Below, piece by piece: positions 15,641 through 63,383 of a DNA stretch of 64,000 bases; position 1 is the first letter of the stretch; every line of letters begins with the position of its first letter. The notes beneath the pieces are model-generated. The model did not search any database. It was not told where the DNA came from and was given only the letters and a program-made list of their open reading frames with translations. The stretch comes from a virus: the UHGV virus genome UHGV-0214148; one strand, given 5' to 3'. The translations under genes were made by a program, and so were the position numbers.

Positions 15641-16573
15641 TTACTTTTTGGTTTGACCAAGGTTTTCAAGAACCAGTTCACGAATGTACTTCTGAGTACG
15701 TTTTTTCGGCGGTAGAGCCATAAGAGTGTCAACGATTCCCTGGCCGCCGATAACCTTGCTGACGAGTTGTTGAACTTGGAAGAGTTCTGCTTCTTCGTCA
15801 CTGATCTCATTAGCTTGGTCTTTCTGACACAACGCTTCTACCAGGTCAGCTACGGATATTTCATTTTCGTCACCGGGGAAATCCAGGTTTAACGATTCGA
15901 AAACATCACGCTTAACGAGTACAGATTTCAGATCATCGTAGTTTTCACAAACGGCGACTTCTGTGCCAGGTACCGTTTCTTCTTCGTCTTGATCTTCATT
16001 CTCAGAGGCGAAGTAACTTACTTCTGTTGCGTGGAACGTTGCGTCAGCTTTTCTCAGTACGTAGCTCACATGCGACCAATTGCTCAGGATGAAGTAGACA
16101 ACACCCCCAATTAATCCGATGTTGCCCTGGCGAAGTTCGAGAGCAATTTCCAGGCGGCGTGAAATCTCACCCAAACCAAAGAAAGTCTCGTCGCAGGCCG
16201 CAACAACTTCGTACTGATTCACTCCTTGTTCTACAACAACGTACCAGTTATCCGGGAGAGGATACGGGTTGTGCATGAAAGAAAGTTCGTTCCCTGCGCC
16301 TGGGTCAACAGTAACGGATGTATGGCGCATTCCCATGGAGAAGTTGAACGTATCCCCGTTTTGAACCGCAATTGCACCGTCAATCGGAAGAATTTTGGTG
16401 GCACGATCAATAGAGAAAATCGCTTCCTGTGTAATTGAAGACTGATTACTGCCTAGGAAGTGATTACGCAGAAAAGCAGCGGTTTCACCTACAGTGGTTT
16501 GTAGCATATGGTAGTTATAACGACGACGCAGCGTGTTAGCCAGTTCGTAAATTACTTCAGATGGAAAAGTCAT
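15641..16573 (-). CDS. hypothetical protein
   Basis: 310-aa ORF, acidic C-terminal region. Confidence 0.5.
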   Translation of the reverse strand: MTFPSEVIYELANTLRRRYNYHMLQTTVGETAAFLRNHFLGSNQSSITQEAIFSIDRATKILPIDGAIAVQNGDTFNFSMGMRHTSVTVDPGAGNELSFMHNPYPLPDNWYVVVEQGVNQYEVVAACDETFFGLGEISRRLEIALELRQGNIGLIGGVVYFILSNWSHVSYVLRKADATFHATEVSYFASENEDQDEEETVPGTEVAVCENYDDLKSVLVKRDVFESLNLDFPGDENEISVADLVEALCQKDQANEISDEEAELFQVQQLVSKVIGGQGIVDTLMALPPKKRTQKYIRELVLENLGQTKK

Positions 16574-20470: not shown

Positions 20471-20656
20471 CTAATTCCGCCATTCGCATTCGCGTTGACG
20501 CCAAATTGAACCCCACGATAGTTTAATCAGATAAGATGAAACTACCCATAAAATCATCACCACACAAAACATGACATAAAGAACCGCTAGAATGGACATG
20601 AAGCCAAACCCTGCCGCATCCACAATACGACGGAACCAATCAGTTTGCATAAACAA
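20471..20656 (-). CDS. small membrane protein (61 aa)
   Basis: Hydrophobic core GFGFMSILAVLYVMFCVVMILWVVSSYLI; overlaps the 3' end of the ATPase gene by 17 bp. Confidence 0.4.
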   Translation of the reverse strand: MFMQTDWFRRIVDAAGFGFMSILAVLYVMFCVVMILWVVSSYLIKLSWGSIWRQRECEWRN

Positions 20657-23144
20657 TTTTTACTCCTTCGTTATACACCGCAGGCAATGTCACCCCTTCC
20701 GGTTCGATGACACAGTACGATGCTTCATTAAGTTTAGAATGAACCTCGGCTTCGTGGGAGACTACCAACAGTTGGGAAAATTCTCCCGAGTTTGCTAACG
20801 TTTTAATAAAGCCGACCAGGTTGTTACGGTGCTCCTCATCCATGCCTTCCGAAGGCTCATCCAAAAGCAACGGAAACTGATGCAACTTCAGCGCTTTGTA
20901 CGCAGTCAGCCTGAACATCAGATTAAATATCGCACGCTGCGCCTTAGATCCTTTACGCACGTCAGGAACAGGCTCAGGATGCGTTTTTAGCTGGACAGGA
21001 AAAGTATAATCCAAATCGCCGTCAGTGAGGTCACAAGGCATAACGCGCATGGGGTACGTCCAGACTTGTTCGATATAACGCGTCATTAACTCTGTGATTC
21101 TAACGATAGCGTTGTAAAAATACTTTCTAAGTACACCCTTTTCTGGCGAGAAGGCTTGAATCATCAGTTTGTTATTGAACTGCTGGGCTTGTAAGTCAGC
21201 AAGTTCGCGTTCCAAACTGTTGAGCTGATTCAATTCATTTTCCATCTGACGATAACGTTCGCGTGCGGTTGTAAAAGCATCCAGCTTCCCTTCTCGAGCA
21301 CGTAAGAGTTCCTCGACGACTGTATTTGTCAACGTAACCTTAACATCACTCTCTAGCCGTTCGAATAACGCACTGAAATCATCTACAGCACGTTTAACAT
21401 TCACCAGATAGGTAAGTGTCGTGTTAGCCAGTTCGTGCTCTCTACGACGCATTGAGAGCATTTCTGTGGCTTTACCTAATCGCGACTGTTGGAAGGCGAT
21501 TTTCTGTTGTAAAGCGCCATCGACGTTACCAACGGCCGCTACGGCATCCTGCCATTCTTTTTCCGCCTTCACTAACCGTTGTCGGGTTTCATGATACTCA
21601 ATAGCAGAGTACAACTCGCTGTCAAACGCTGCGCATAGACTCCCGAACTGTTCACGTGATTCAGTGAAGACGTTACGTTCTTGCAAACGCTTAAAGAACA
21701 TGCTCAATACCGGGTCCTTTGAATACGTCAGTACAATCTCACGAACCTGCCGCATATAAGTTACATCAGATTCTAATTCAACACGATAGCGTAATAGGGC
21801 CTCTAACTGTGTTTGCAGTTCCGTGCGCTGCTGTTGTTGTCCGCGAATCGAAGACTCAAGTTCAGGTAAAGAACGCGTAACACCGGGCCGAAACTTAAAC
21901 CGACACTGCGGGCAATCCACTTCCGCTGTTTCTAAGTAGTGATTACGCTCGTGATTTAAATTCTGTAAAACGTTCTCCACTCGCTGGAGTCTATCCCGCA
22001 ACCCTGCGGTTTTTTGATCCATCACCAGAAGCCGTTCTTCCAAAACATTGAGTTTTTCGGTTGAATGAATTGCGTCCAGCGTTGTTCCTAACCGTTGCCC
22101 CCAGACACGCGCGTCGGTAGCCGCACGAAGTTGGTCTAAATTGACGTTGTCGTTAAATAGACCCGGAAAGAGATGCTCGGTGTCCCATTTGGTAAGTAAC
22201 TCACGTAAACGCGCCAATGTATTCTTGAGACCTTCGTGATTCCGCATCAGGTAGTCTTGTCGTGTTGACTCATCCATCAATAACGACAAGTCTTTATTCA
22301 ACATCGATACCTCTGTTTCAGTAGACACGACAGCTTCGCGGGCCGTCGCTTCGTTTTGTCGCGCGACCAGTATCTGTTCATCGGTAGGCAGGCCACCACG
22401 ATGTTGTAATATTGCGTCGATGGTTGGGCCCAAGCTGTTTAATAACGCTTGGATTGTTTCGATGGTGACGGCACGATTTAATCCTGGCAACTGTTCGATT
22501 TCTCGGTTCAATTCACGTAAATCCGATTCCAAACCTTTTAATCTCGTCGCTAACTGCTGCCGTTCTTCCTCGTTCTCAATAACACGCGTCCGTAATTCGG
22601 CGATCTTGCGGCTGGTGATTTCAATACCCCCATTTAAGGCAGTAAGGTTTTTACGTAAACGTTGATAAAACCCTAACGCGTAAGTGAGGTCAGAGGTACT
22701 TAAACGGTAAAACCATTTGCGGCGTAATTCGGTTCCCGCATCGGTTAACAACACCTCACCATTTAATAGTTCTTTAATCTCTTTCGTAATACCCGTGATT
22801 TCTTCAACACGGGAGTTGTAGACTTTCGCATTACCTTGCTCGACGATCTTTGTCCCCGTGGTCAGGTTCTCAATATCGCAAACCAAAGAGTTGCCTTTAC
22901 GGGCAACTTTGAATCGATAGCGTTGATCGCCAACTAAACAGTAGTTCGTGTAAGAACCGCCGTCCCTGAATTCAGTTTTAGCTGGTGCTAAGGGTAAGAA
23001 CACAGACAGTAGACTGGTTTTCCCGCAGCCGTTCCCACCCAGGATAATTGTTGTCGGAGACTGGATAGTGAAATCGAAGGTTTCAATTTCATGTAACCCC
23101 ATCCCCGTAAAACCTTTGAGTATAATGCGTTCAACTTTTAGCAT
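20640..23144 (-). CDS. Rad50/SbcC-like SMC-family ATPase
   Basis: N-terminal Walker A ILGGNGCGKTSLL, long coiled-coil middle with CPQCRF (possible zinc hook), C-terminal LLLDEPSEGMDEEHRN and VVSHEAEV (Walker B/D-loop/H-loop). Start placed at the ATG preceded by GGAGGTGGGT. Confidence 0.7.
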   Translation of the reverse strand: MLKVERIILKGFTGMGLHEIETFDFTIQSPTTIILGGNGCGKTSLLSVFLPLAPAKTEFRDGGSYTNYCLVGDQRYRFKVARKGNSLVCDIENLTTGTKIVEQGNAKVYNSRVEEITGITKEIKELLNGEVLLTDAGTELRRKWFYRLSTSDLTYALGFYQRLRKNLTALNGGIEITSRKIAELRTRVIENEEERQQLATRLKGLESDLRELNREIEQLPGLNRAVTIETIQALLNSLGPTIDAILQHRGGLPTDEQILVARQNEATAREAVVSTETEVSMLNKDLSLLMDESTRQDYLMRNHEGLKNTLARLRELLTKWDTEHLFPGLFNDNVNLDQLRAATDARVWGQRLGTTLDAIHSTEKLNVLEERLLVMDQKTAGLRDRLQRVENVLQNLNHERNHYLETAEVDCPQCRFKFRPGVTRSLPELESSIRGQQQQRTELQTQLEALLRYRVELESDVTYMRQVREIVLTYSKDPVLSMFFKRLQERNVFTESREQFGSLCAAFDSELYSAIEYHETRQRLVKAEKEWQDAVAAVGNVDGALQQKIAFQQSRLGKATEMLSMRRREHELANTTLTYLVNVKRAVDDFSALFERLESDVKVTLTNTVVEELLRAREGKLDAFTTARERYRQMENELNQLNSLERELADLQAQQFNNKLMIQAFSPEKGVLRKYFYNAIVRITELMTRYIEQVWTYPMRVMPCDLTDGDLDYTFPVQLKTHPEPVPDVRKGSKAQRAIFNLMFRLTAYKALKLHQFPLLLDEPSEGMDEEHRNNLVGFIKTLANSGEFSQLLVVSHEAEVHSKLNEASYCVIEPEGVTLPAVYNEGVKIVYAN

Positions 23145-23175
23145 ACCCACCTCCATAAAGACGGAGTGTGGTGTA

Positions 23176-23887: not shown

Positions 23888-24364
23888 TTACAGCCCTAAG
23901 TGCGTGAGTGATAAAATAGGTTGTGTTTCACCTTTAATCGTCGCGAAGGAACGATACATTTCTGCGTTACTTGAAAAAACTTCGTTAGCAACGATACATT
24001 CACCCGTCTCTAAAGAAAGGAGATAAATGTAGTCGCTCCATACGCTTTGTACCAACACCCACTCAAGTGCGGTATCATTTTCGCGTGTTGTTCGCAGGTG
24101 GTGAAAGTAAGGACGGATCGCATCAACTGCCGCATTAAAACGACGGTGATAAATTCGGGTTAAATCAAAGGTCCAGATTGTTTCCAGGTCGACTGGATGT
24201 AATGTGCGCACCGTTTCGATAATCGTCGACTGATCGTTAAGGCGCGAGGCTTCGGCGATACGTAGCAGTTTCCAGGCTACCGTTAAGTTGTGGCGAATTT
24301 GTTCAGGTTTAGCCGACAGGTCATGATGAAATTGCGCAGCTTGGTAAACGTTAGATAATTGCAT
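23888..24364 (-). CDS. hypothetical protein
   Basis: 158-aa ORF preceded by the recurring CCTAAAGGAGTATTAAAATG initiation context. Confidence 0.5.
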   Translation of the reverse strand: MQLSNVYQAAQFHHDLSAKPEQIRHNLTVAWKLLRIAEASRLNDQSTIIETVRTLHPVDLETIWTFDLTRIYHRRFNAAVDAIRPYFHHLRTTRENDTALEWVLVQSVWSDYIYLLSLETGECIVANEVFSSNAEMYRSFATIKGETQPILSLTHLGL

Positions 24365-27057: not shown

Positions 27058-27133
27058 TTCTCCTAAAATGGTTTTCGTTAAGTGAGAGCTTTTGTACTCT
27101 CACCTAAGTAATATATATCTGAAATTATTTTTA
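27058..27133 (-). repeat. conserved ~76-bp 5' leader cassette, copy 1 (hairpin plus AT-rich 21-bp motif)
   Basis: Nearly identical to 63307-63383; contains the inverted repeat GTGAGAG/CTCTCAC (27082-27103) and TAAGTAATATATATCTGAAAT (27105-27125), directly upstream of the 26680-27051 start. Confidence 0.6.
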
Positions 27134-31112: not shown

Positions 31113-31487
31113 GATTTACTCGCTAATCTCAATAAAGGGGAGTCTATTATTATGGATTGTAAAAGAGGTATAAGGAAGTCACTACGTTCCTCTGGGAAGA
31201 GTATGTCGGTATACTACGTATACCTCCGCTATTTATATCCGTATACATAATGCCCCCTACCCCCTACCGGTATCCCGAGTAGCAGAATAAAGGGGCAGAC
31301 TGTAAAATTTTAGTACCTGTTATCGGAAGGTACTAAATGGAGTGTAGTCTTTAAGCCGTTTGAGCAGCTCATTGAGACTTTCTTTCTTTTTAGTAGACAT
31401 GATCTGTCTCCCCAAATGGTTTAATCAATCCGTTTCGAATGAAACGTGTCCGTAGGGGCTGAACTGGCACTTCAGCCCCTATTCACT

Positions 31488-31508
31488 TAAGTAATATATA
31501 TCTGAAAT
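31488..31508 (+). promoter_or_regulatory. third copy of 21-bp AT-rich motif TAAGTAATATATATCTGAAAT, upstream of 31534 start
   Basis: Exact 21-bp match to the motif inside the two leader repeats, 25 bp upstream of a plus-strand ATG; preceded by the hairpin GGGGCTGAA/TTCAGCCCC. Confidence 0.4.
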
Positions 31509-31533: not shown

Positions 31534-32499
31534 ATGGAGAAATCCAGTGTTGATTTTTTCTCAATTGGTATCGTCGCGGAAGACAAACCCCGTGGTACAG
31601 ATCGGGTAAAAGTGATACCAATTGAAACCAACTTTGCTAACCCTACCGTGGTGCAATCTGTTTCTTCAGCAACTGAAAAGACGCATGAAACGTCTGGCGC
31701 AACAGATAACCTAACCATTAAGACGGGTAACACGATAACAGCAAAGTGGTGGAAGTTTAACTCCAACCGAATTAATTCCCCTGACGTTAAACGAGAAGAC
31801 TACGTTATCTTGTTACGTTTGGGGAAAACCGATATTTATTTTTGGATTGATCTGAACTTCGCTAACGTTAAGCGATTAGAAGATGCGGTTTATGCGTGGT
31901 CGGCTGACCCTGAAAACCAAATGGCGGATGACTTGTCCAATGCGTATGTGTTGAACGTTTCGACGATTGACAAACATATCACGCTAAGAACAAGTATGGT
32001 GAACGGTGAGAAAGCGGCGTGGTTATTTCAGTTTGATAATGCAAATGGCACGTGGCAGTGTGTTGACCACAAAGGGAATAAGTATTACATTAACTCGGTG
32101 GAAGATGATCTCGGGTTTGAGAATGCGATGCTCTCAAAAGTGAACATCAACAAAGAAGATGCGTTCATTTATTCAAAGCGTTCTATTAACCTGGAAACGA
32201 AAACAATTAATGAAAAATGCGAAGTTCGCAATACGGAAGCAGCGAAATCCGTTACGTTTAAAACGCAAACCTGGTTAACGGAAGCAGGGAGTTCGACAAC
32301 ATTTAAAACGCCGAACTTTAAACAAGAAGGGAATGAAGCGATGTTCACCGGTAATCTGGAAATCGCTAAGAACTTCAAATACGGCGGTACGGGTGAAGGC
32401 GTGGGTGTCTTTACGGTTAAAGATGCCGTTATTTCTGGTATTACCTTTAGCGTTCACATTCACCAAGGTAAACATGGCCCGACATCACCTCCGCAATAA
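31534..32499 (+). CDS. hypothetical protein (possible virion protein)
   Basis: 321-aa ORF with SD AAGGAA; Thr/Asn-rich beta-like composition. Confidence 0.5.
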   Translation: MEKSSVDFFSIGIVAEDKPRGTDRVKVIPIETNFANPTVVQSVSSATEKTHETSGATDNLTIKTGNTITAKWWKFNSNRINSPDVKREDYVILLRLGKTDIYFWIDLNFANVKRLEDAVYAWSADPENQMADDLSNAYVLNVSTIDKHITLRTSMVNGEKAAWLFQFDNANGTWQCVDHKGNKYYINSVEDDLGFENAMLSKVNINKEDAFIYSKRSINLETKTINEKCEVRNTEAAKSVTFKTQTWLTEAGSSTTFKTPNFKQEGNEAMFTGNLEIAKNFKYGGTGEGVGVFTVKDAVISGITFSVHIHQGKHGPTSPPQ

Positions 32500-32704
32500 T
32501 TCCCCTTTTTCTTACGTTGTTTTTATATATTGTGACCTGACGTTGGTAAAACTTTTTATCAACACTTTTCTTAAACCCATCGTTTAGTTAAGCAGGCCAC
32601 TTTTTCGCGCACTCTACTCCTCCCTACGGGGAGGAGCTATCTTATGCTTCGGTTGTAACACACGTCGGTCTTAGACCACTAACCTTTTGAAATGGAGAGC
32701 TGTT

Positions 32705-32914
32705 ATGTCTATTAAAGAGTTCTCTTCTGCTGAGCATATTCCAGAAGAGTTTAAGAAAATCGGTAACGTCAGCGCTTTCGGCGATACCGTTGATCATGTA
32801 ACTGGTAAACTGGCTGCTGAAGCCGAAAAAATTGGCGGCGACGCATTCAAAGTTATCGGTATTTCCGGCAACAACAAACTGCACGGTAACGCGATTGTCT
32901 ACAAAAAAGACTAA
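32705..32914 (+). CDS. DUF1471 (BhsA/YdgH/McbA-like) domain protein lacking a signal peptide
   Basis: 69 aa; EEFKKIGNVSAFGDTVDHVTGKLAAEAEKIGGDAFKVIGISGNNKLHGNAIVYKK matches the enterobacterial DUF1471 pattern. Start at the ATG preceded by GGAGAG. Confidence 0.6.
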   Translation: MSIKEFSSAEHIPEEFKKIGNVSAFGDTVDHVTGKLAAEAEKIGGDAFKVIGISGNNKLHGNAIVYKKD

Positions 32915-32976
32915 GCGAAAAAAAAAACGTGCTACTCCTACCCTCTAAGAGGGTAGGAGGTTACTTTATTTTTTTC
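32909..32976. terminator. bidirectional rho-independent terminator
   Basis: A10 run, hairpin CTCCTACCCTC-TAA-GAGGGTAGGAG (32935-32959), then a T-run; lies between convergent genes. Confidence 0.75.
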
Positions 32977-34228
32977 GTGCTTTAAAGCGATGCATTTCTA
33001 AATACACTTTTTCCCAGGGACCGAATGGACCAACGATTGCTTGAGCATCGTTAATCTTCTTCTGATTATACCACCGGGCTTCACGAAAGACGTAGTTTTG
33101 ACTGTCGAATTCGGTAGTGTTAAATACCCACTCACCTTCCTCCCACGTAGGCCAATAACCTACCGTCTTACCAAATCGATTATTTAAGTACCCTAATGGT
33201 TTTTCAGAATCAGGATCGTTGGGGTCCTTGAGGTAACAGCGTCCCCAAACGGCGTTATGCGAAACACCCACGACTTCTTCTTCTAAATACGGATTATCTA
33301 CCGTAAAGATAAAAGAGGATTCGTGGAGTAAAAGTGCCTTTAATGTTTCGGGGTTGCGAATACGTTGGACATTAGTAGGTGTTGATAAATCCCCCACACC
33401 GATGGCGTCCCAGTCGTAATAGCGACGGGTTTCCAGAACGGTCCGTGCAAGATCAAAATTCGGTAAAGAAATCATGATCGCACGGTCGGAGAAATAACCC
33501 CCCGGAGGCAACCAACGTAACAGTCCACCGATGACGAAACCCACCGTTTTTCCCGTGATAGATTCGGGCAGCGAAATCATTAACGTGGAGTAATAGTCAC
33601 GTGTAGTGTCGAGCTTGTTTAGGGTAAGGTTGGCAATGGGGTAAGTTTTAACATTCCCTAACTGACCAAAAACCATACAGCCGATATCTGGCGTACAGGC
33701 TCTCCGTACGATTTTACCGGCCCCGGGTAATCGGACACCTACGGTATCTGTCTGGTGCGGTACCCATTGACCGTTAATGTTGTACAGTACACTATTACGG
33801 TATTTGTCCTTCCACTTGTCCTCACAAACGATGACAACGTCATCAGCATCATCTAAGCTGAAATCTTGACTGTGGTGGTACCCAGGCGGACACAGGTACG
33901 TTTCAACGGGTACGTCGGCATTAATCGATTGGTAATGTGCCCAACCGAATTCGAGTTTCGGCAATCCGGCTTTTAGAGTGGGGATGACGTTTCCGGCTTT
34001 TTCATTTAACCAATCTTGTAAAGTGTCTGTTCGGTTTTGTAGTTCGGCAAGATGATATTGGCTGACTAACGTATAGTCTTTACCAAGTGCACTTAAACCG
34101 ATCTCAAAGGTGTGGTAGTCTGAACACAACGTAGTTAAGGGTTGCGTGACATCGATGGCTCCCCAGGTACGGGACTCTCGAGAGAAGCCAAAAGCGCTGT
34201 CGGGCCGCACTTGATAAGCAGTAGTCAC
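32966..34228 (-). CDS. hypothetical protein (possible virion/tail-associated)
   Basis: 420-aa ORF, divergent from the fiber operon. Confidence 0.5.
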   Translation of the reverse strand: MTTAYQVRPDSAFGFSRESRTWGAIDVTQPLTTLCSDYHTFEIGLSALGKDYTLVSQYHLAELQNRTDTLQDWLNEKAGNVIPTLKAGLPKLEFGWAHYQSINADVPVETYLCPPGYHHSQDFSLDDADDVVIVCEDKWKDKYRNSVLYNINGQWVPHQTDTVGVRLPGAGKIVRRACTPDIGCMVFGQLGNVKTYPIANLTLNKLDTTRDYYSTLMISLPESITGKTVGFVIGGLLRWLPPGGYFSDRAIMISLPNFDLARTVLETRRYYDWDAIGVGDLSTPTNVQRIRNPETLKALLLHESSFIFTVDNPYLEEEVVGVSHNAVWGRCYLKDPNDPDSEKPLGYLNNRFGKTVGYWPTWEEGEWVFNTTEFDSQNYVFREARWYNQKKINDAQAIVGPFGPWEKVYLEMHRFKARKK

Positions 34229-34296: not shown

Positions 34297-37200
34297 ATGG
34301 CTGTCGTCTTAGACCCACACTTCAAAAAACCGGGGAATAAAATAACCGGTGAAGCGGTCGCCGTCATTGGTACGAAATACCGAATGTTGGTACCTGCCCA
34401 CGCCCCTTTTTTCACCACATCCCTGGTGGTCAAGAGCGGCGGCAAAACACTGACCTTAGGCGACGATTACATTATTACACACCCGTACGAGACCGGTATG
34501 TTGCGCACAGCCTATCTCATTCACGGGATGATTTGGATTGTTAATGACAAATACAAATCGAATTTTACGGTAGATTACCACGCCGTTGGTTGTGGTCAGG
34601 CTACCCAACAACAGATTACCGCAGAACGCGAACTCAATAAAGATAAATACCCGACTACGTGTCAGTGGGACACCGTCATCGGGGACGTTTACTTTCCGCC
34701 GGTCGATATCCAGTTCGATTGGGAGAATTGGAAAGGTGAACTGGAATTAATGCAGGCTATTGCTGGATTAGGCGATTCGTTAGGGGAAGTCGTGAGTCGA
34801 CTTAACCCCATCGCACGCAATACCCTGGATTTAGAATACCGTGCTAACAGCAAGGTTATCACTTCCGAGCAGTATGCCGCATACGACAATAAAGGTGGGT
34901 TCACCTACAACACTACCCGTCATCGTTATAGCTTGAGTTATAAAACTGCAACCTTTAACAACTACGCCCTGTCAGTGAAACATAGAATTCCTGCTATTCT
35001 GCCAGACATGACGAAATTGAATCCAAACGAACAGATCGATTGGATGCTCTGTTATGCTAACGGCGGGGCAAGTATTCTACGGCTGCAGCTAAAACAGCGC
35101 AAAATCTCACTGGTCTTAACGGTCGCTATTGGTAGCGGTTCAACAAACTACGATTATACGTTAATCAACGGTTTAACTGACGATGAGTTAAAAAACGATA
35201 TCGATTTTAGTGTAACCCGTCAACCCGGAAACGGTGTTTACGTCATCGTAGTAAAAACAAATAAACAGACCATGGATTATACATTCAATGTCGATACGCC
35301 ACCTGATGAGTTCTCGGCAGGGTATTCGAAAACGGATGTTGCTAAATGGTTGAAGTCTAAAACGAACATTAACCTGAACTGGTATGCTGGACAAAAAGAT
35401 TATGTTCAAATTCGTTCTTTACCCGGTGCACCAGAACCTGACGTCGATAACGATGTTTACCAGTTAATAGTTAAATACCATCAATTAGTTGAGCAGCTGT
35501 ATCGTAACGCGCCTGCACACGAACACGTTACACGTAAGGACAACCCGCACACCGATACGTGGGGCCCGATCCGTGCGTTACAGCTGAATGGTATTGCGTC
35601 GGATGCCGCGTTAGCTTACGGGAAAACGAAACAACAGTTAACGGATTATGTTAATGCTAAGTACCCAACACAAGCAACGTTAACCGCACAGAAAAAACTG
35701 CTTCGTGAATCGGCGAACAAGAACGTTAACGGCACGATTACCACACTTCCGGGTTTTACTTCGTTCACGACGGAAGTTGATCCGGTTTCGATGTCGAAAT
35801 ACGTGAGTCCTCGTTTTAGCGAAAGCTACGTTAGTAATGGTCACAGGTATCACGGTGCGCTTCGTTACACAGGAACGAAGAGTGGATTCGCCACTTCTTT
35901 TAATGCGGTACCTGCCAACCTGCAAGATATTGACTTTATTGTTACCGGACGTAAAACAGCGTCTGGTAATGAAGCTGTCGGTACGGTTAGCCTACGTTTC
36001 TATCAGAAACCTGGTACTAACTCTGGAAAATTTATCCAGCTTACAGGTGAAATTTCTGCGGGTAAAGTCGGCGTTAAGTTGGAACTGAACGGTTTTTCGA
36101 ATACCACACCGGAAGTTCAGTATCTTTCCCAAGCCCCTAATCCAGCAATACCGGATGGGGATTTTACTCTGCGTTTTCAACTGAAACGCACAGGGAACGT
36201 GTTTGATGTCGTTATTACCATAAACGGCAAGACATACAGTGCACGTGTTAACTTCACTAACATGGACGCTGCACTAGAAGCATTGGAGAATAGCCACCAC
36301 TTTAAATCATTGATCAGTAATGTTGCTGACAACGTCACTATTAGCTCGGGGAATAAAGGTAACACGGTTACCATTAAGAAAGCGCCCGACGTCGTTGACG
36401 GGACCCGTTTAGGTGCCCAGTTTGTCGTTGACCCGAAATCCATTAAGTTTATTGGACAAGGTTCAACCGAGGTTAATGCGGGGAATAACCCTGTAACGTT
36501 TCAAGCAGGTACTAACCAACTTATATTGTATCCTGATGATCGTGGGTTACAGTGGCGTGGTAAGAAACTCTTAGACCCCACTACCGTGGCTCCGTATCTG
36601 CCAGGCAATACCGCGGGCGGTACGGGATTATTCTACGGTACATCTACAACCACGGTAGAGCTTACCGGTAGCGGGATAAAAGCATCGCCGTTCGTAGCGA
36701 CTTTTATTCTCCCTACCGCGACCGATACAACAGCCCTGGCAGCTTGGCAGTTGACCGATGAGTTTGGTACCGCTGAAAACCTTGCAGCAACGCCAGCACT
36801 GATTGAAAAACTCGATGCGGAGTTCACCGGTAAATTAGTTGCGGTTAAATCGTACATTAACGACATGCAACTTACCAGCTCGGTCACTATCGACAAAATT
36901 ACCTTTGGTTTAGGTAACGTTGCGAATACACCCGATGTCAATTTACCGATTTCTACAGCACAACGTGCGGAGTTAGATAAATACTCGCCTAAAGTTCACC
37001 AACACCCGTTTACCGCTTTTGGTACTGGGAACGCAACCACAGCGAAACGTGGTCTGATTAAATTTGGTCTGGATGTGGATGATGCGACTTTAGCACTCGA
37101 TGGGAGTGTGGTAATGGCGCAGACTACCCAGATTGAAAAATTGGAAAGTGCTGTCGGGGGTGTTGACTCGGAGGCACGTCTCGACATTATACGTTTTGGT

Positions 37201-38619
37201 AAGTCTGGTAACGACTTAATTGATGTTACGGTCAAAGACAAAATACTGGTTACACTTCCAGCATCAACGTATTTTATCGGTGGCGAAACATACACCGTGC
37301 CGTTGACGACGATTAACGTCAGTGAACGTTTTCCGAAGTTGAATACAGAAATCTACGCGGGGATTTTTGTTGATATTGTTGACAACAAAGCGAAGTACAT
37401 TATTCACGACAGCTACAGTCAAGCTGAAACGGATACCATGACGCGTGTGGGATTAATCGGCGTCAATGACCTTTCTGAAGTGTTCGTTACAGAGATGCGT
37501 AACGTCACACGGCTGGACGATTTCCGTGAACTGAAAGATCACGCTGCTGACGATAACGCGCATATTCACCGCTCCACGACACGTGCAGTGCTTGGGTTAG
37601 CTAACTTAACGGTAGGTGCGCCCTGCTGGGCTTCGGGACTCCAGGCAGTAGTACGTGGTGAAGCAGATTGGCGTTATGTCGTCGGTGGACAGTATAGAGC
37701 CTTAGACGGGGTGAAATACGACCAGCTCGCATCAAAGTGGGTTTTCGATGCGAAAGGGGTAAGTGATAACCTTCATGGTTTTATTCACAACTTATTCCCG
37801 ACTTTCAAAAACGCAGGAATGCGGGTAAGTTGGGAAACAGAAAGCAACGCAAAAACCGGAACAGTGTTAGAAACTGTTTTAGGTTGTTGGAAGAACACCG
37901 ACGGCGAGTTTATGCGGTTGTCATTACTCATCACTCGCGGTTATCGTTTAACTGACAGTAACGGTGAATATTGTTACGCAGGGTTCGGTTTGAACTTCGG
38001 TAGCGGGAAATCGGTAGTGGTAGGTTTCACACCAACGAAGCGTGTTACAGCTGCACCGTGGAGTTCATTACAACCTGACGTAACGTTTACCCACACCCGT
38101 GGTGCAAACAACGCAATAACGTTTAATGCATCGCTGACTTTAGCTGGCACTGTGTATACTATCGTGGTGTTTTTATCCGCGACAGATAAATACGTAAGCT
38201 GTACGGCAGCAGGGGGAACTACGCAGAAAATCCCATTAGCCGACCGTTTAACCGGGTTCAATATCGAACCTATCGTTAACGATCCGTATACCCCTATTTA
38301 CTACGGTTTAGGGGGACTTTATGAGGATGAGGTTCGTGCCAACATCCGCTCTACAGCAGACAGCGCAACTGCGAACAAAGTCTACGGTACGTTGTTGGAC
38401 TATGTTAGCAACTATTCCTCATTAAATCGAGTACGCGTCATGGAATTGGCCGGTGTCAGCTCAGACCCCGAAACGCTTAATGCGTTAGTGGCAACTGAAT
38501 TTAATAACAGCCTGGCGGATTACGCTGCGTTACCGATACCTCCTTATCTTAACAAGGAGCGCGTAATGTCGTTTATCGACACCAACAATAAAGTGCAGGC
38601 GGTAATCATTCGCGATTAA
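34297..38619 (+). CDS. large fiber-like virion protein 1 (putative tail fiber)
   Basis: 1440 aa, Thr/Gly/Asn/Val-rich. Shares with the next three genes an N-terminal pattern PF[FY]...V....G.DY..[LI]. SD TAGGAG precedes the ATG. Confidence 0.55.
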   Translation: MAVVLDPHFKKPGNKITGEAVAVIGTKYRMLVPAHAPFFTTSLVVKSGGKTLTLGDDYIITHPYETGMLRTAYLIHGMIWIVNDKYKSNFTVDYHAVGCGQATQQQITAERELNKDKYPTTCQWDTVIGDVYFPPVDIQFDWENWKGELELMQAIAGLGDSLGEVVSRLNPIARNTLDLEYRANSKVITSEQYAAYDNKGGFTYNTTRHRYSLSYKTATFNNYALSVKHRIPAILPDMTKLNPNEQIDWMLCYANGGASILRLQLKQRKISLVLTVAIGSGSTNYDYTLINGLTDDELKNDIDFSVTRQPGNGVYVIVVKTNKQTMDYTFNVDTPPDEFSAGYSKTDVAKWLKSKTNINLNWYAGQKDYVQIRSLPGAPEPDVDNDVYQLIVKYHQLVEQLYRNAPAHEHVTRKDNPHTDTWGPIRALQLNGIASDAALAYGKTKQQLTDYVNAKYPTQATLTAQKKLLRESANKNVNGTITTLPGFTSFTTEVDPVSMSKYVSPRFSESYVSNGHRYHGALRYTGTKSGFATSFNAVPANLQDIDFIVTGRKTASGNEAVGTVSLRFYQKPGTNSGKFIQLTGEISAGKVGVKLELNGFSNTTPEVQYLSQAPNPAIPDGDFTLRFQLKRTGNVFDVVITINGKTYSARVNFTNMDAALEALENSHHFKSLISNVADNVTISSGNKGNTVTIKKAPDVVDGTRLGAQFVVDPKSIKFIGQGSTEVNAGNNPVTFQAGTNQLILYPDDRGLQWRGKKLLDPTTVAPYLPGNTAGGTGLFYGTSTTTVELTGSGIKASPFVATFILPTATDTTALAAWQLTDEFGTAENLAATPALIEKLDAEFTGKLVAVKSYINDMQLTSSVTIDKITFGLGNVANTPDVNLPISTAQRAELDKYSPKVHQHPFTAFGTGNATTAKRGLIKFGLDVDDATLALDGSVVMAQTTQIEKLESAVGGVDSEARLDIIRFGKSGNDLIDVTVKDKILVTLPASTYFIGGETYTVPLTTINVSERFPKLNTEIYAGIFVDIVDNKAKYIIHDSYSQAETDTMTRVGLIGVNDLSEVFVTEMRNVTRLDDFRELKDHAADDNAHIHRSTTRAVLGLANLTVGAPCWASGLQAVVRGEADWRYVVGGQYRALDGVKYDQLASKWVFDAKGVSDNLHGFIHNLFPTFKNAGMRVSWETESNAKTGTVLETVLGCWKNTDGEFMRLSLLITRGYRLTDSNGEYCYAGFGLNFGSGKSVVVGFTPTKRVTAAPWSSLQPDVTFTHTRGANNAITFNASLTLAGTVYTIVVFLSATDKYVSCTAAGGTTQKIPLADRLTGFNIEPIVNDPYTPIYYGLGGLYEDEVRANIRSTADSATANKVYGTLLDYVSNYSSLNRVRVMELAGVSSDPETLNALVATEFNNSLADYAALPIPPYLNKERVMSFIDTNNKVQAVIIRD

Positions 38620-38632
38620 GGAGAATTTTTTG

Positions 38633-41600
38633 ATGAAAGCGTATCCTTACGATCCTCGGGGGACGAAAACCGAGAATCACTTCTTAGAGGAGCGTATCAT
38701 CGGGTCAGAAAACAACAACGATCGGGTGGTGATTCTAGACCATCGCCCGTTTTTTGAAGATTTAGTCGTCAGACAACCAGGTTCAACCACCCCACTGAGT
38801 CGTGGGGTGGACTACGAACTGCAATATCAGCTGACGGAACTGGATGACTCGGTAGCAGCCAACGTGTATTGTGGGGTACACCTTATCAACCCTTCCATCA
38901 AAGGCATCGTAACCTTTGAAGGACAAATGCTCGGCGGTACGTTCTACGACCCGTTTGTTGATATTCTCGATGAACTGGTGAAATATTTGAATAACCCAGT
39001 CAGTGCTGACTGGTTGTTATTAGAAGGCAGACCGTCGTTATACCCGGCTACGCCTGCGGCAACGTCCTGGGCGGATTTGCTGAACAAAAAATATTTAGCG
39101 TCGGCAGTTCACGATATTGAATTGAAAACCGACGACGCTAACCAGTTAATTAAAGACAAATTAGCTGAAGTTAAAGCGTTAGTCGCCGCGCTGGGTAAAG
39201 AAATCGAGGCATTTAACTACCCGGCACACATCGCGGAAACCAACCCGCACCAAACTACTTCTGCACAGATTAGCGCACATCCTGTTAACTTGAAAACACC
39301 CGACACCTTTATGGCGTACGGGTTAAAGTTGAAAGCACTGACGGATGAACTGAAAGCGTTTCGTTTACCACAGTCAGTTATTGACACGTATATCTCCCAC
39401 TGGATTTCTTCAGAAGTACGGGGTGTGTTTAACTGTACGGTGTCAGGAAACCGTGCACAATTCCGCTCAAAAAACGGTGAGTCAGAAATCATTTTTGCGA
39501 ATGATGGCTTTACGTTAAAATCCAACGGTTCTGTGGTGTTGGCGGTAGGGCATCTGGAGGGAACGGGTGCAGGACGTTACATTAACTGGCGTGCTGGTAA
39601 AAACACCTTACGTATCGAGTCAACAGGCGATGCTTTAGGGATGAACAAACTCACCCTAAACGGTAACCCGTTACTGACTACCACGGCGTTGATGGAATAC
39701 CAACAAGATCCTGATGCTGGCGGGAGCGGCGGCGGTGACCCTGATGACTCGAAGGTGTACATCGAAGGCCGTAATGGGATTAGCTTCACCGGTAAAGGCT
39801 CTCGGACCGATCCTATCGTGGGTACTATCGACCCGACGAAAGCGACAACCGCTGAAAAAGGTGTTGTTAAGCTTAAAACTGGTAAAGGTACAGAAACGGT
39901 TGGGGTTGCAGCAACGCCAGCGTCATTAACACCTTATTCGACCGACCTATCAGGGTATGTGGCTAAAACGACCATGATTAACGGTAAGCCAATGAATGAC
40001 GGCTCCAGGACAATCACGAAAGCTGACCTGGGGTTAGGGCAAGCGGATAACACCGCAGACCTTGACAAACCGTTGTCAACCGAGTTAACTAAGGCGGTTA
40101 GCGGTCTAGCAGATGTAGGCCATCATCACGATTGGTCGGAGTTAGGCATTTATAAAGCTTCTCAATCTGTTTACGGTATTGGACGTTATGCAACTAACCA
40201 GAACGGTTTGGTTGAAAACCGTGCAGTGGTACCGAACATCTTAAAAGAGCTTTCGGCACGTTTAAGTGTGGTCGCTGCGGCAATTGCAAATGCGAAAGAA
40301 GGAACAGTAACGGATTTCGCTGCTGTAAAAGGCGCAGACTGGCGATTTAATAGCCAGGGTACGGCAATCTCCGTTCAGGATTTGAAATATTTCTATTTGC
40401 TGGACGGCACGAAAGGTGACAGTACCGTTACCGGTGCGATTGACCTGCAAACCACCCCGATGTTTAACTGGTTCTCACCGAATAACCAACTTGAGCTGAC
40501 TTGGGCTACGGGTAAGGTGAGTAACGGTACGGGAATCAACTGGACGGGTATTGAAGAACCGCCATTGATGGGGTTCCAGTCTGTCCCGGTAGGTAAAACC
40601 GCTACGCAGATGGGTGACCAGTCAGTTGTTACTGTATTGGCAAAAACGCGTGTAAAAGCATACCAACCGAAGCTCTGGGTTTATGCTGCTGGGGGTGGTC
40701 CGGTTACGGTTTACATTAACGGTATCCAGGCCGCTTCAGGCGAGTCCCCACTCGTTGCGGTGTACGAAACGTCGTCAGACGTTGAAAATTACACAGTGGC
40801 GGTTAAAGCCGAGTGCAGCGACACGACTAAATCCGCAGCGGTACAGTTCGAAGTTTACGATGGTGACTACCCCGTTTATTTCAGTGGTCCTGAAACGCGC
40901 GTAGAGCTTCTCCAGGAGTTTGTTACAACGCACGTAGGGGTTCGTCACTATTTGTACGTTAACATGCTCACAGGCTCTTTGTATTCGCGTGCTGAACCGA
41001 TTCAGAGTATTGCCGTTGACCCAGAGCGCGGTTATATCGGATATGTTGATATCGTTCCTGGTCAGTCTTACGCGAATAAAACTGTGGGGTTTGAAACCAC
41101 GTTTGATTTCGGGAAAAGTGCGGAAGTTAGCGAGCACATCAGCACTCGTAAGGCACACGGACTCAGCGCTGTTGACTGGGCGTTAACGGATAACCCACGG
41201 CTGCCGTTATTAAACCGTGCTATTGCTGAACCAAGAGCGTGTATCTTTAGGAAACCGTTAGCAACCGCTACAGGGGATGTTTTCCATCTTGTCAGTCGCG
41301 GCCTTTATACCTACGCACACAACCAAAACGTGAAGTCGAGTCTTCAATACGTTGTGATACCTGAAGGTGCTACGCCGTATTGTTGGTTTACACCATTTAA
41401 CCCGAAAGAAAACAACGCACCGACATTCGAAGGCTCGTTTGCGTTCGATGTTGACGATGTTGGTGGAACGCAAGCCCTTGCTGCTGCGCCGGATTTGGTT
41501 CTATGCACGTCAACGCAAGGTAGCAGCGTTAAACGTCGCTATCTGCGCATTGACCTAACTACCAAAACCTGTAAGTTGGGGATTGGTTCCCGTTCAGATT

Positions 41601-42814
41601 CTGCTGTTACGGATATTCCGTTAGTGATGGAGGAGTCTGGGGAAACGGCAGTGGCCGCAACGTTTAAGGATGTGTTGTTCAACGGTGAGGAAACCAACCC
41701 CGCGACGCTCGACTTGATAGGTTGGGGTGCCAGCCGAGATAAAATTTCTGCAAACCATGCACCTCGTGGCATGATTCGGTATCGTTACAACGTAAACACA
41801 CGGGTATTACGTTTAGCACTGACGTTCTCACAGTTCGGAACGACAACAGTTAAACATCGACAGCTGGAGATTCAATTCCCGTTCGATTTAGTGGATTATT
41901 TCACTGGCGACGGTGTGGGATTGTCGTTTAAAGAACTGTCTGCGAAATGTCGTGTAACGATTAGTCACGCGCTGATTGATCCGGCTACGAGTAACGTCGA
42001 CATTGATAAGTACCATTACTTACGTTCGTTGTTCGAATCGTATCTGGATTCTTCCGTTGGGTATTTGGCTGATACCAAAGACGTTGATTTTAGTCAGTCT
42101 GTGATTGACCCTGCGACTTACGAGGTTAGTCAAAAATACCGCGTTACAGAAAGCATCGCGCTGCCAACCGGCCAGGGAAGTGTTGCTGTTTCCCATGACG
42201 GCCAGTTGCCTGCGCAGTTCTTTGACCGTAAGCTGTCTCGTGGTGCCTTGATGGCCAAGAAAGGTGAACTCAACGCTTCCTGGAATAATGAGTGGAGCAC
42301 GACTAAAGCTGCTGCGAGTCGTTATCGCCATAAACTCATTCTACGCTTTGCACAAGGTGCTGATAAACAGCAGTATCGCGTTGCAAAAGTGGCCGGGACG
42401 GTGAAGTCTAACTGGCCGGGTAAAGTGATTATTGGTGATGCCGGGAAGGACCCGTATGTATCGGCTATTGATAGCGTATCTTTTGCGCTTTCGACCGCCT
42501 CTGATACAGGTAAAGCGATTACTCTTACGCCAAAGGACTTACGTGTAGGTCAGGACATTTATATTGTCTTAGAACCACCCGGCAATAATCCAGAAGGTTA
42601 TGAACTTAACTTCACTTGTTCGTTAGATGTCACTGACGAGAAAAGTGTCCGTCAAGATCAACTCAATGCACAGAGTTTCGAACTCCGTAGCGGCGAAAGT
42701 CAGTTCTTAATGGAGAAACGCAACCCGTACCACATCACGAGTAAAGCGTGGAAGTGGATTTTGGCTGTACTGAAACGTGAACTTAACGGGAAGCAGTTAG
42801 GGGATCGTACTTAG
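38633..42814 (+). CDS. large fiber-like virion protein 2 (putative tail fiber)
   Basis: ~1393 aa; N-terminal RPFFEDLVV...RGVDYEL pattern; SD AGGAG 10 nt upstream; abuts fiber 1. Confidence 0.55.
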   Translation: MKAYPYDPRGTKTENHFLEERIIGSENNNDRVVILDHRPFFEDLVVRQPGSTTPLSRGVDYELQYQLTELDDSVAANVYCGVHLINPSIKGIVTFEGQMLGGTFYDPFVDILDELVKYLNNPVSADWLLLEGRPSLYPATPAATSWADLLNKKYLASAVHDIELKTDDANQLIKDKLAEVKALVAALGKEIEAFNYPAHIAETNPHQTTSAQISAHPVNLKTPDTFMAYGLKLKALTDELKAFRLPQSVIDTYISHWISSEVRGVFNCTVSGNRAQFRSKNGESEIIFANDGFTLKSNGSVVLAVGHLEGTGAGRYINWRAGKNTLRIESTGDALGMNKLTLNGNPLLTTTALMEYQQDPDAGGSGGGDPDDSKVYIEGRNGISFTGKGSRTDPIVGTIDPTKATTAEKGVVKLKTGKGTETVGVAATPASLTPYSTDLSGYVAKTTMINGKPMNDGSRTITKADLGLGQADNTADLDKPLSTELTKAVSGLADVGHHHDWSELGIYKASQSVYGIGRYATNQNGLVENRAVVPNILKELSARLSVVAAAIANAKEGTVTDFAAVKGADWRFNSQGTAISVQDLKYFYLLDGTKGDSTVTGAIDLQTTPMFNWFSPNNQLELTWATGKVSNGTGINWTGIEEPPLMGFQSVPVGKTATQMGDQSVVTVLAKTRVKAYQPKLWVYAAGGGPVTVYINGIQAASGESPLVAVYETSSDVENYTVAVKAECSDTTKSAAVQFEVYDGDYPVYFSGPETRVELLQEFVTTHVGVRHYLYVNMLTGSLYSRAEPIQSIAVDPERGYIGYVDIVPGQSYANKTVGFETTFDFGKSAEVSEHISTRKAHGLSAVDWALTDNPRLPLLNRAIAEPRACIFRKPLATATGDVFHLVSRGLYTYAHNQNVKSSLQYVVIPEGATPYCWFTPFNPKENNAPTFEGSFAFDVDDVGGTQALAAAPDLVLCTSTQGSSVKRRYLRIDLTTKTCKLGIGSRSDSAVTDIPLVMEESGETAVAATFKDVLFNGEETNPATLDLIGWGASRDKISANHAPRGMIRYRYNVNTRVLRLALTFSQFGTTTVKHRQLEIQFPFDLVDYFTGDGVGLSFKELSAKCRVTISHALIDPATSNVDIDKYHYLRSLFESYLDSSVGYLADTKDVDFSQSVIDPATYEVSQKYRVTESIALPTGQGSVAVSHDGQLPAQFFDRKLSRGALMAKKGELNASWNNEWSTTKAAASRYRHKLILRFAQGADKQQYRVAKVAGTVKSNWPGKVIIGDAGKDPYVSAIDSVSFALSTASDTGKAITLTPKDLRVGQDIYIVLEPPGNNPEGYELNFTCSLDVTDEKSVRQDQLNAQSFELRSGESQFLMEKRNPYHITSKAWKWILAVLKRELNGKQLGDRT

Positions 42815-63306: not shown

Positions 63307-63383
63307 TTCTCCTAAAATGGTTTTTCGTTAAGTGAGAGCTTTTGTACCCTCACCTAAGTAATATATATCTGAAATTATTTTTA
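63307..63383 (-). repeat. conserved ~76-bp 5' leader cassette, copy 2
   Basis: Near-identical to 27058-27133 (one substitution in the hairpin arm, one extra T), directly upstream of the 62794-63300 start. Confidence 0.6.

What the first reader, a model, noticed from the sequence alone, without database searches (positions are those of the whole stretch)
32705..32914. Leaderless DUF1471 (BhsA/YdgH-like) protein encoded by the phage
The 69-aa product matches the enterobacterial DUF1471 stress-protein family pattern (...KIGGDAFKVIGISGNNKLHGNAIVYK) but lacks the N-terminal signal peptide those periplasmic proteins normally have. A host-derived gene repurposed for cytoplasmic expression would be unusual and also points to an Enterobacteriaceae host. 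It sits alone between two terminators as its own transcription unit.
Basis: partly seen in the sequence, partly recalled or inferred. Interest (0 to 1): 0.6.

Follow-up and report, generated by a model that had tools for sequence, protein, structure and literature searches.

The report
Signal-less DUF1471 protein in jumbo-phage tail module
A giant phage of enterobacteria carries a small gene for a protein domain that bacteria normally export to the periplasm; the phage copy has no export signal, is an old conserved part of the phage's tail-gene block, and its counterpart in Salmonella phage SPN3US (gp172) was already detected in purified virus particles, so this is a real but largely known feature.

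Summary
ORF 32705-32914 (+) encodes 69 aa that match Pfam PF07338 above threshold and are predicted to adopt the DUF1471 fold. No signal peptide is present or recoverable.

It is not a fresh host capture. The gene is the ortholog of SPN3US gp172 (PHROG 8068). It is present and always leaderless in about 60 jumbo-phage records (Seoulvirus, Erskinevirus, Machinavirus, Wellingtonvirus, Derbicusvirus). It always sits between the baseplate gene and the homolog of the essential tail protein gp171.

Other evidence:
- It is under purifying selection (dN/dS 0.01-0.25).
- Its GC content is typical of the phage.
- It is at most about 50% identical to any bacterial homolog, and no donor lineage can be resolved.
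- It scores half the BhsA cut-off, so the "BhsA" GenBank labels are over-annotation.
- SPN3US gp172 was found by mass spectrometry in CsCl-purified virions (7 kDa, 81% coverage, low abundance).

My best reading, which is inferred, is a low-copy tail or baseplate accessory protein that reaches the cell envelope on the particle rather than through Sec. A cytoplasmic role is not excluded.

The downstream bidirectional terminator is well supported. A conserved phiKZ-type TATG start motif lies upstream. The upstream hairpin lacks a proper T tail in this window.

Verdict: new member of a known kind, moderate to low interest.

The parts
32705..32914 (+). CDS, 69 aa plus stop. A single leaderless DUF1471 domain; ortholog of SPN3US gp172 (PHROG 8068).
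   Evidence: Pfam PF07338 38.2 bits. phrog_8068 E=4.5e-32 over the full length. AF2 and Foldseek match solved DUF1471 structures. dN/dS 0.01-0.25.
32694..32699 (+). Shine-Dalgarno GGAGAG, 5 nt before the ATG.
   Evidence: Read from the sequence. GGAG or GAGGA lies at the same place in the orthologs.
32643..32646 (+). TATG motif. Putative phiKZ-type nvRNAP promoter and start site (G = +1), giving a 59-nt 5'UTR.
   Evidence: It is the only TATG in the intergenic region. A TATG, usually TATGC, lies 38-66 nt upstream of the ATG in 12 of 12 loci. phiKZ late promoters are defined by TATG with G as the start site (PMC4666361). Function here is inferred, not shown.
32617..32636 (+). GC-rich hairpin (8-bp stem, loop TACG) between the baseplate gene and the TATG motif. 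Probable terminator or insulator for upstream transcripts; weak T tail in this window.
   Evidence: Terminator scan. Fold energy -17.2 kcal/mol. A hairpin followed by a T run sits at the equivalent place in Stratton, Asesino, ChrisDB, Wellington, SNUABM29 and Phobos; CR5 and Derbicus have the hairpin with an interrupted T tail. SPN3US lacks a clear hairpin.
32595..32612 (+). Conserved intergenic motif GGCCACTTTTTCGCGCAC, of unknown role.
   Evidence: GCCACTTTTTTC(G/A)C is conserved in most relatives, degenerate in Phobos and CR5. It is not repeated elsewhere in the window.
32667..32677 (+). Small 5'UTR hairpin GGTC-TTA-GACC.
   Evidence: Relatives carry AGAC-N5-GTCT at the same place. It is deleted, as part of a 21-nt indel, in the near-identical metagenome contig L004, so it is dispensable.
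32918..32975 (.). Bidirectional intrinsic terminator shared with the convergent 420-aa gene: A run at 32918-32927, 11-bp stem-loop at 32935-32959, T run at 32965-32975.
   Evidence: Terminator scan. Fold energy -24 kcal/mol. The stem is conserved with compensatory changes across the five loci aligned.
31534..32499 (+). Upstream neighbour: baseplate assembly protein (SPN3US gp173 homolog).
   Evidence: phrog_3216 E=1e-113. Synteny.
32966..34228 (-). Convergent downstream neighbour: 420-aa homolog of SPN3US gp171, an essential tail-associated protein.
   Evidence: phrog_3337 E=9e-144. SPN3US_0171 sits at the syntenic place. gp171 is essential and tail-associated (PMC5105663).
34297..38619 (+). 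1440-aa baseplate or tail-fibre candidate, at the syntenic place of SPN3US gp170 (paralog family C).
   Evidence: Synteny with SPN3US_0170. Family C described in PMC5694885.

Best explanation
Shown: this is a real gene under purifying selection. It encodes one DUF1471 domain that corresponds to the mature, already 'processed' form of the periplasmic enterobacterial proteins, preceded only by a Met. It is the ortholog of SPN3US gp172 and a long-standing resident of the baseplate and tail gene block of SPN3US/phiEaH2-like jumbo phages of Enterobacterales; relatives such as Asesino are nucleus-forming Chimalliviridae. It has its own ribosome-binding site, a conserved phiKZ-type TATG start motif and a bidirectional terminator.

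Inferred: the protein is made in the cytoplasm at middle or late times. It is incorporated in low copy number into the virion, most likely on the baseplate or tail next to its genomic neighbours. It needs no Sec signal because it reaches the outer membrane and periplasm, where this fold works in bacteria, as part of the particle during adsorption and penetration. There it would bind an envelope component. SrfN, a bacterial DUF1471 protein, binds anionic polysaccharides. Binding could aid attachment or penetration, or blunt an envelope response.
For: - Family and fold.
- No signal peptide in any of 12 orthologs. The matches to bacterial proteins or their family profiles begin after the signal peptide, at positions 27-32.
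- Synteny between the baseplate gene and the gp171 homolog holds in Seoulvirus, Erskinevirus, Machinavirus, Wellingtonvirus and Derbicusvirus.
- dN/dS is 0.013-0.25 for unsaturated pairs. GC is 0.429 against 0.448 +/- 0.039 for the window.
- SPN3US gp172 was detected in CsCl-purified virions: 4 unique peptides, 6 spectra, 81% coverage. Its spectral count per kDa is 0.86, similar to the portal protein (0.93) and the baseplate/fibre candidates (1.0-1.4). It is not flagged as a head protein (PMC5694885).
- Neighbour gp171 is an essential tail-associated protein (PMC5105663).
- A TATG motif is conserved 38-66 nt upstream in 12 of 12 loci. This matches the phiKZ nvRNAP late promoter (PMC4666361).
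- The 25-nt early-type motif found three times in the window is absent from this intergenic region.
- SrfN binds sulfated polysaccharides (PMC4092069).
Against: - Virion association rests on one study of a 45%-identical ortholog, with only 6 spectra.
- gp172 was missing from the 47(am1) mutant particles, and the authors themselves call its status unresolved.
- It is not listed in the 2016 head/tail partition, so tail location is inferred only from gene position and from the absence of a 'Head' flag.
- A small, well-expressed soluble protein could co-purify with particles.
- No interaction, localisation or phenotype data exist. The time-course proteome paper (Weintraub 2019) could not be read.
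- The gene is absent from the other records of the phage collection, including other jumbo phages, so it is not a core structural part.
Confidence: 0.45

Rival explanations
1. Non-structural cytoplasmic effector. The leaderless DUF1471 domain stays in the cytoplasm or the phage nucleus and acts on a host or phage target. For example, it could titrate a partner of the host DUF1471/RcsF-type proteins before export, or modulate stress responses. Its presence in virion preparations would be carry-over.
For: There is no export signal. The gene has its own promoter-like motif, a strong SD and a terminator, which suggests independent and possibly high expression. The virion signal is low and inconsistent. 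Wellington carries a tandem paralog with a long acidic disordered tail, which looks more like a soluble effector than a structural part.
Against: The gene holds a fixed position inside the tail and baseplate block in five genera. It was detected with 81% coverage in CsCl-purified virions. No cytoplasmic role is known for any DUF1471 protein (PMC4092069). The early-promoter-like motif is absent.
Confidence: 0.3
2. Assembly factor or chaperone for the neighbouring tail and baseplate proteins (the gp171 or gp170-family homologs). It would act in the cytoplasm during morphogenesis, with traces remaining on particles.
For: It is a small gene set between large tail and baseplate genes, as many phage fibre chaperones are (general knowledge). 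Its virion abundance is low and variable. It has late-type promoter features.
Against: The DUF1471 fold has no known chaperone activity. The gene was not among the essential genes found by amber mutagenesis. That is weak evidence, since a 69-codon target is small.
Confidence: 0.15
3. Recent host-derived passenger gene, or a decaying fragment of a host bhsA-like gene that lost its 5' end, with no function for the phage.
For: Some GenBank records label it BhsA.
Against: Purifying selection. Conserved synteny and conserved regulatory elements in five genera. GC typical of the phage. At most about 50% identity to any bacterial protein. Below the BhsA cut-off. A PHROG family of full-length 70-aa members exists.
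Confidence: 0.02

Closest known systems
Salmonella phage SPN3US gp172 (SPN3US_0172; RefSeq ACQ60_gp094, 'DUF1471 domain-containing protein'); PHROG 8068
   Same: Same length (69 aa). Same leaderless single-domain architecture. Same genomic slot between the baseplate gene (gp173) and gp171. Same terminator and TATG architecture. Full-length PHROG match.
   Different: Only 45% identical. The window protein belongs to the phiEaH2/Machina/SPAsTU-type subgroup (71-80% identity). Virion detection has been shown only for SPN3US.
Erwinia phage orthologs (phiEaH2 G173_gp094, Stratton gp191 'putative multiple stress resistance protein BhsA', ChrisDB gp194, Asesino gp192) and Salmonella phage SPAsTU 'bhsA'
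   Same: 71-80% identity, 69 aa, identical synteny.
   Different: The window phage is only about 74% identical in DNA to any of them over this region. Its upstream hairpin has lost the T run and the TTTAC element.
Enterobacterial periplasmic DUF1471 proteins (BhsA/YcfR, YbiJ, McbA, YhcN, YahO, SrfN, YdgH)
   Same: Same Pfam family and fold. The C-terminal motif GNN..HG.A.VYK is conserved. The phage protein aligns with the mature YahO chain over residues 9-68.
   Different: The bacterial proteins are typically 80-90 aa with a Sec signal peptide of about 21 residues and are periplasmic or outer-membrane proteins (PMC4092069). The phage protein has none. It falls below every NCBIfam equivalog cut-off, the best being BhsA at 46.8 against 90.
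RcsF (outer-membrane lipoprotein sensor of the Rcs envelope-stress pathway)
   Same: Similar alpha+beta fold: 2Y1B TMq 0.85, and 9BIY chain B TMq 0.82. Eletsky et al. also note RcsF as the closest fold to DUF1471.
   Different: No cysteines, no lipobox and no sequence similarity (11-12% identity).

Membership tests
DUF1471 / PF07338 (YdgH/BhsA/McbA-like domain) | Match to the Pfam HMM above the gathering score | tested here: met
   38.2 bits against GA 27, E=1.4e-9, profile positions 2-55 of 55.
DUF1471 / PF07338 (YdgH/BhsA/McbA-like domain) | Mixed alpha+beta fold of the solved DUF1471 domains | tested here: met
   AF2 pLDDT 89.4. Foldseek top hits are 4EVU, 2M2J, 2MA8, 2JNA and 2NOC, with probability 1.00 and TM 0.72-0.78.
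DUF1471 / PF07338 (YdgH/BhsA/McbA-like domain) | N-terminal Sec signal peptide and periplasmic location (true of 'most' members, not a strict criterion) | tested here: not met
   The ORF cannot be extended. The N-terminus is hydrophilic, maximum Kyte-Doolittle 0.15 against about 1.8-3.1 in full-length bacterial members.
DUF1471 / PF07338 (YdgH/BhsA/McbA-like domain) | Restricted to Enterobacterales | tested here: inconclusive
   The host of the window phage is unknown. All 60 phage records with the gene infect Enterobacterales.
BhsA (NCBIfam NF047859, equivalog) | Score at or above the curated cut-off (90 bits) over the full length | tested here: not met
   46.8 bits, matching only profile positions 30-85 of 85. 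The 'BhsA' labels in GenBank are over-annotation.
SPN3US gp172 orthologs / PHROG 8068 | Full-length match to the family profile | tested here: met
   E=4.5e-32, residues 1-69 against profile positions 1-70 of 70.
SPN3US gp172 orthologs / PHROG 8068 | Syntenic position: baseplate gene (+), this gene (+), gp171 homolog (-), gp170-like gene (+) | tested here: met
SPN3US gp172 orthologs / PHROG 8068 | Presence in purified virions | not testable with these tools
   Reported only for SPN3US gp172, at low abundance (PMC5694885).
RcsF | Lipobox and redox-active cysteines | tested here: not met
   No Cys in the 69 aa and no signal or lipobox. Similarity is at the fold level only.

The most novel reading that the evidence does not exclude
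The phage carries, on its baseplate or tail, a signal-less copy of a periplasmic envelope-stress domain and delivers it physically into the outer membrane or periplasm at infection. It would thus bypass Sec, and could bind an envelope glycan or protein, or mimic host DUF1471/RcsF-type proteins and interfere with envelope-stress sensing. That would give the first mechanistic role for DUF1471 in any system and a new route of effector delivery by a virion tail.
Probability: 0.12. Interest if true: 0.65.

Novelty: new member of a known kind. Interest (0 to 1): 0.33.

Why it matters
DUF1471 proteins are abundant stress- and biofilm-linked proteins of Enterobacterales, and their molecular function is still unknown. 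A phage lineage has kept a signal-less copy for a long time inside its tail-gene block, and the copy appears in virions of one member. This offers a tractable handle: if it is a true tail component, finding what it binds on the cell envelope could reveal what the fold does in bacteria. For annotation, the result corrects the 'BhsA / multiple stress resistance protein' labels in several phage records. It also ties the gene to SPN3US gp172. In itself, the window adds only one more ortholog.

Tried and rejected
- **Donor lineage.** A neighbour-joining tree of 100 DUF1471 domains (54 columns) is unresolved. Monophyly of the phage and leaderless set gets 17 of 200 bootstraps, and the smallest clade holding all of them includes 92 of 100 tips. 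The donor cannot be named. Common ancestry of the phage copies is argued from synteny instead.
- **Word-indexed homolog search.** It returned only 7 close relatives. The exhaustive profile search was needed to reach the bacterial proteins.
- **Sigma-70 promoter scan.** It found nothing on the + strand upstream of the gene. That is expected for phages that use their own RNA polymerases.
- **Early-promoter idea.** The AT-rich stretch TATATATTGTGAC (32524-32536) does not match the repeated 25-nt motif, or its TATATATTAC core within one mismatch.
- **GCCACTTTTT as a repeated promoter element.** It is not enriched in the window: 8 hits at up to one mismatch against 6.4 expected. Its role remains unknown.
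- **Second copy in the window.** None found.
- **DUF1471 in other phages.** Queries with two bacterial family members found no further phage lineage. One hit was a bacterial contig filed in the phage collection.
- **Literature.** No paper discusses phage DUF1471. The SPN3US infection time-course proteome (Weintraub 2019) is not held. The later SPN3US head papers do not mention gp172.

Full report
**1. The observation**

The + strand ORF 32705-32914 starts with ATG. A GGAGAG Shine-Dalgarno lies five bases upstream (32694-32699), and the ORF encodes 69 aa (7.4 kDa, pI 6.3, no Cys). It matches Pfam PF07338 (YdgH/BhsA/McbA-like, DUF1471) with 38.2 bits against a gathering score of 27 (E=1.4e-9), covering nearly the whole profile.

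By sequence it also finds the solved Salmonella 'putative periplasmic protein' chains 2MA4 and 2NOC. Query residues 9-68 align with residues 9-69 of the 78-residue 2MA4 chain. An AlphaFold2 model is confident (pLDDT 89.4). Its best PDB neighbours are the DUF1471 structures 4EVU, 2M2J, 2MA8, 2JNA and 2NOC (TM 0.72-0.78), followed by RcsF.

The absence of a signal peptide is real. The frame is open for only ten codons upstream, and the only alternative start adds MKWRAV.

**2. What the window is, and how widespread the gene is**

The region is about 74% identical in DNA to jumbo phages of the SPN3US, phiEaH2 and Asesino type. No closer relative is in the phage collection. Asesino has been shown to be a nucleus-forming chimallivirus (PMC11724907).

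A tblastn search with the 69-aa protein finds 60 phage records. All are jumbo phages of 197-251 kb infecting Erwinia, Salmonella, Escherichia, Cronobacter or Proteus, at 40-80% identity. The protein matches PHROG 8068 over its full length (E=4.5e-32).

Searches with two bacterial DUF1471 proteins found no other phage lineage among 50,697 records. The matches of the one that hit these phages broadly (P0012) always begin at its residues 27-32, after the signal peptide.

An exhaustive profile search of 1.84 billion representative proteins gave 91 hits:
- The four best are 68-78 aa and aligned from at or near residue 1. Three of the four come from clusters with contigs of 190-225 kb, which are jumbo-phage genomes.
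- The next best hit, P0012, lies in an ordinary bacterial chromosomal context.
- Most of the rest are 80-90 aa with a hydrophobic N-terminus, and their domains begin near residue 30.

**3. Conserved anatomy**

The gene order is the same in Seoulvirus (SPN3US, SPAsTU, pEa_SNUABM_29), Erskinevirus (Stratton, Asesino), Machinavirus (ChrisDB), Wellingtonvirus and Derbicusvirus (Phobos, CR5, Derbicus), and in a near-identical metagenome contig. The order is baseplate assembly gene (+), DUF1471 gene (+), a convergent gene of about 420 aa (-), then a very large gene (+). In Wellington alone, extra small genes are inserted (see section 7).

In SPN3US these are gp173, gp172, gp171 and gp170. gp171 is an essential, tail-associated protein (PMC5105663). 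gp168-170 are baseplate or fibre candidates (PMC5694885).

All twelve orthologs examined are 67-73 aa, and none can be extended to a signal peptide. The 80-aa GTG start annotated in Derbicus is probably an over-extension.

Evidence that the gene is old and functional:
- Pairwise dN/dS is 0.013-0.25 where dS is not saturated.
- GC is 0.429, against 0.448 +/- 0.039 for 210-nt windows.
- The best identity to a bacterial protein is about 49-53% over about 52 residues.

The gene is therefore an old resident of the phage lineage and not a recent capture. A neighbour-joining tree could not resolve either phage monophyly or a donor.

**4. Transcription unit**

*Downstream.* An 11-bp GC-rich stem-loop (32935-32959) is preceded by an A run and followed by a T run. 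It serves both convergent genes. The stem changes in a compensatory way among the five loci aligned. This terminator is well supported.

*Upstream.* The 205-nt spacer holds several elements:
- A motif GGCCACTTTTTCGCGCAC is conserved in most relatives and has no known role.
- A hairpin at 32617-32636 (-17 kcal/mol) has a clear T run in six of the relatives compared and an interrupted one in CR5 and Derbicus, but only CTATCTTATGCTT in this window.
- A single TATG lies at 32643-32646.

A TATG, usually TATGC, lies 38-66 nt before the start codon in all 12 loci. In at least six relatives a TTTAC element lies about 20 nt upstream of it. In phiKZ, late promoters of the non-virion RNA polymerase are defined by TATG with the G as start site, and middle promoters carry a TTAC-containing element near -24 (PMC4666361).

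By analogy, I infer that the gene has its own nvRNAP promoter of middle or late type. The 25-nt motif ATTTCAGATATATATTACTTAGGTG occurs three times in the window on the minus strand, against none expected. It looks like an early promoter and is not present here. 'Own transcription unit' is therefore plausible, but it is inferred.

**5. What it does**

The only experimental datum I found is for the ortholog SPN3US gp172. It was identified in CsCl-purified virions with 100% protein probability, 4 unique peptides, 6 spectra and 81% coverage. Its spectral count per kDa is 0.86, close to the portal protein (0.93) and the baseplate/fibre candidates (1.0-1.4). The authors call it the smallest virion protein, note that it was absent from 47(am1) particles, and say its status needs further work. 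It is not flagged as a head protein.

Combined with the fixed position inside the tail and baseplate block and the late-type promoter motif, the reading I favour (confidence 0.45) has these steps:
- The protein folds in the cytoplasm.
- It is added in low copy number to the tail or baseplate.
- It meets the outer membrane and periplasm, the compartment where this fold acts in bacteria, as part of the particle. That would explain why a signal peptide is unnecessary.

A bacterial member, SrfN, binds anionic polysaccharides (PMC4092069), so binding of an envelope glycan is a reasonable guess.

The rivals are a soluble cytoplasmic effector that co-purifies with particles (0.30), an assembly factor for neighbouring tail proteins (0.15), and a functionless remnant (0.02, effectively excluded).

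**6. Comparison with known families, and novelty**

It is a member of Pfam DUF1471 by sequence and fold. It lacks the signal peptide that most members have. It is not BhsA, scoring 46.8 bits against the NCBIfam cut-off of 90 and matching only the mature part of the model. Its resemblance to RcsF is at the fold level only: it has no cysteines and no lipobox.

The phage family is already recognised. It is PHROG 8068, RefSeq annotates SPN3US ACQ60_gp094 as a 'DUF1471 domain-containing protein', and several Erwinia phage records carry 'putative multiple stress resistance protein BhsA'. No paper in the library discusses a phage DUF1471.

I rate it a new member of a known kind, with interest about 0.33. 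The open question is why a phage keeps a signal-less periplasmic-type domain in its tail block. That question is real, but it is not specific to this window.

**7. Things seen in passing**

- Wellington carries a tandem second copy, gp189 (186 aa). It is a leaderless DUF1471 domain followed by an acidic, apparently disordered tail of about 120 aa.
- The window and the 99%-identical metagenome contig differ by a 21-nt indel that removes a small 5'UTR hairpin.
- CR5-type copies are filed under Salmonella enterica in NCBI, on contigs of 224-225 kb.
- The SPAsTU and STsAS copies resemble the Erskinevirus type rather than the SPN3US type, although both phages are classed as Seoulvirus.

Noticed in passing
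window 27101-27125, 31484-31508, 63351-63375 (all - strand): A 25-nt motif, ATTTCAGATATATATTACTTAGGTG, occurs three times with 0-1 mismatch, against none expected by chance. Two copies lie in spacers upstream of minus-strand genes; the third (31484-31508) lies in the 421-nt gap between the divergent genes ending at 31112 and starting at 31534, about 370 nt from the minus-strand gene. It looks like an early (virion RNA polymerase) promoter of the phiKZ type (AT-rich, TATATTAC core).
   Followed up: partly
L008 (Erwinia phage Wellington) 3287-3847, just downstream of the DUF1471 gene at 3001-3222: A tandem paralog, gp189 (186 aa). It has a leaderless N-terminal DUF1471 domain (Pfam 29.7 bits; Foldseek TMq 0.87) followed by an acidic, low-complexity tail of about 120 aa. 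The slot has expanded in Wellingtonvirus.
   Followed up: partly
window 32655-32680 versus L004 about 4765-4775: A 21-nt indel separates the window from the metagenome contig whose protein is 99% identical. The deletion removes the small 5'UTR hairpin GGTC-TTA-GACC, so that element is dispensable or variable.
   Followed up: partly
protein cluster of P0010: CR5-type 68-aa leaderless DUF1471 proteins are deposited under 'Salmonella enterica' isolate assemblies (for example EBS0563251.1 and ECG1798567.1) on contigs of 224-225 kb. Whole jumbo-phage genomes therefore sit in bacterial isolate assemblies, through a carrier state, pseudolysogeny or contamination.
   Followed up: no
L002 (Salmonella phage SPAsTU) 4001-4210; also STsAS: Both phages are classed as Seoulvirus. 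Their DUF1471 protein is 80% identical to the window's and close to the Erskinevirus type, but the window protein is only 45% identical to the SPN3US type. This suggests module exchange, or chimeric or misclassified records (record lengths 197 kb and 251 kb).
   Followed up: no
window 34297-38619, 38630-42814, 42909-48095 (+): Three consecutive very large ORFs (1440, 1394 and 1728 aa) lie at the position of SPN3US paralog family C (gp170, gp169, gp168), the baseplate or tail-fibre candidates.
   Followed up: no
window 32595-32612 and the equivalent sites in L001-L003 and L006-L009: A conserved intergenic motif, GCCACTTTTTTC(G/A)C, is preceded by CGCTTG about 10-15 nt upstream. It is conserved across genera but not repeated elsewhere in the window. 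Its role is unknown: it could be a regulatory site or an RNA element.
   Followed up: partly
L012 (Erwinia phage Derbicus) 2941-3183: The annotated 80-aa GTG start is probably over-extended. The ATG at 2977 aligns with the CR5 and Phobos start (MQQFAKG).
   Followed up: partly
window, many intergenic spacers (for example upstream of 3543-3842, 15641-16573, 20640-23156 and 23888-24364, - strand): Terminator hairpins are often followed by TTTTTAC(A/G). In several spacers a (T/A)TATG lies 15-25 nt further on. This resembles the phiKZ middle-promoter geometry (a TTAC element near -24 plus TATG at +1).
   Followed up: no
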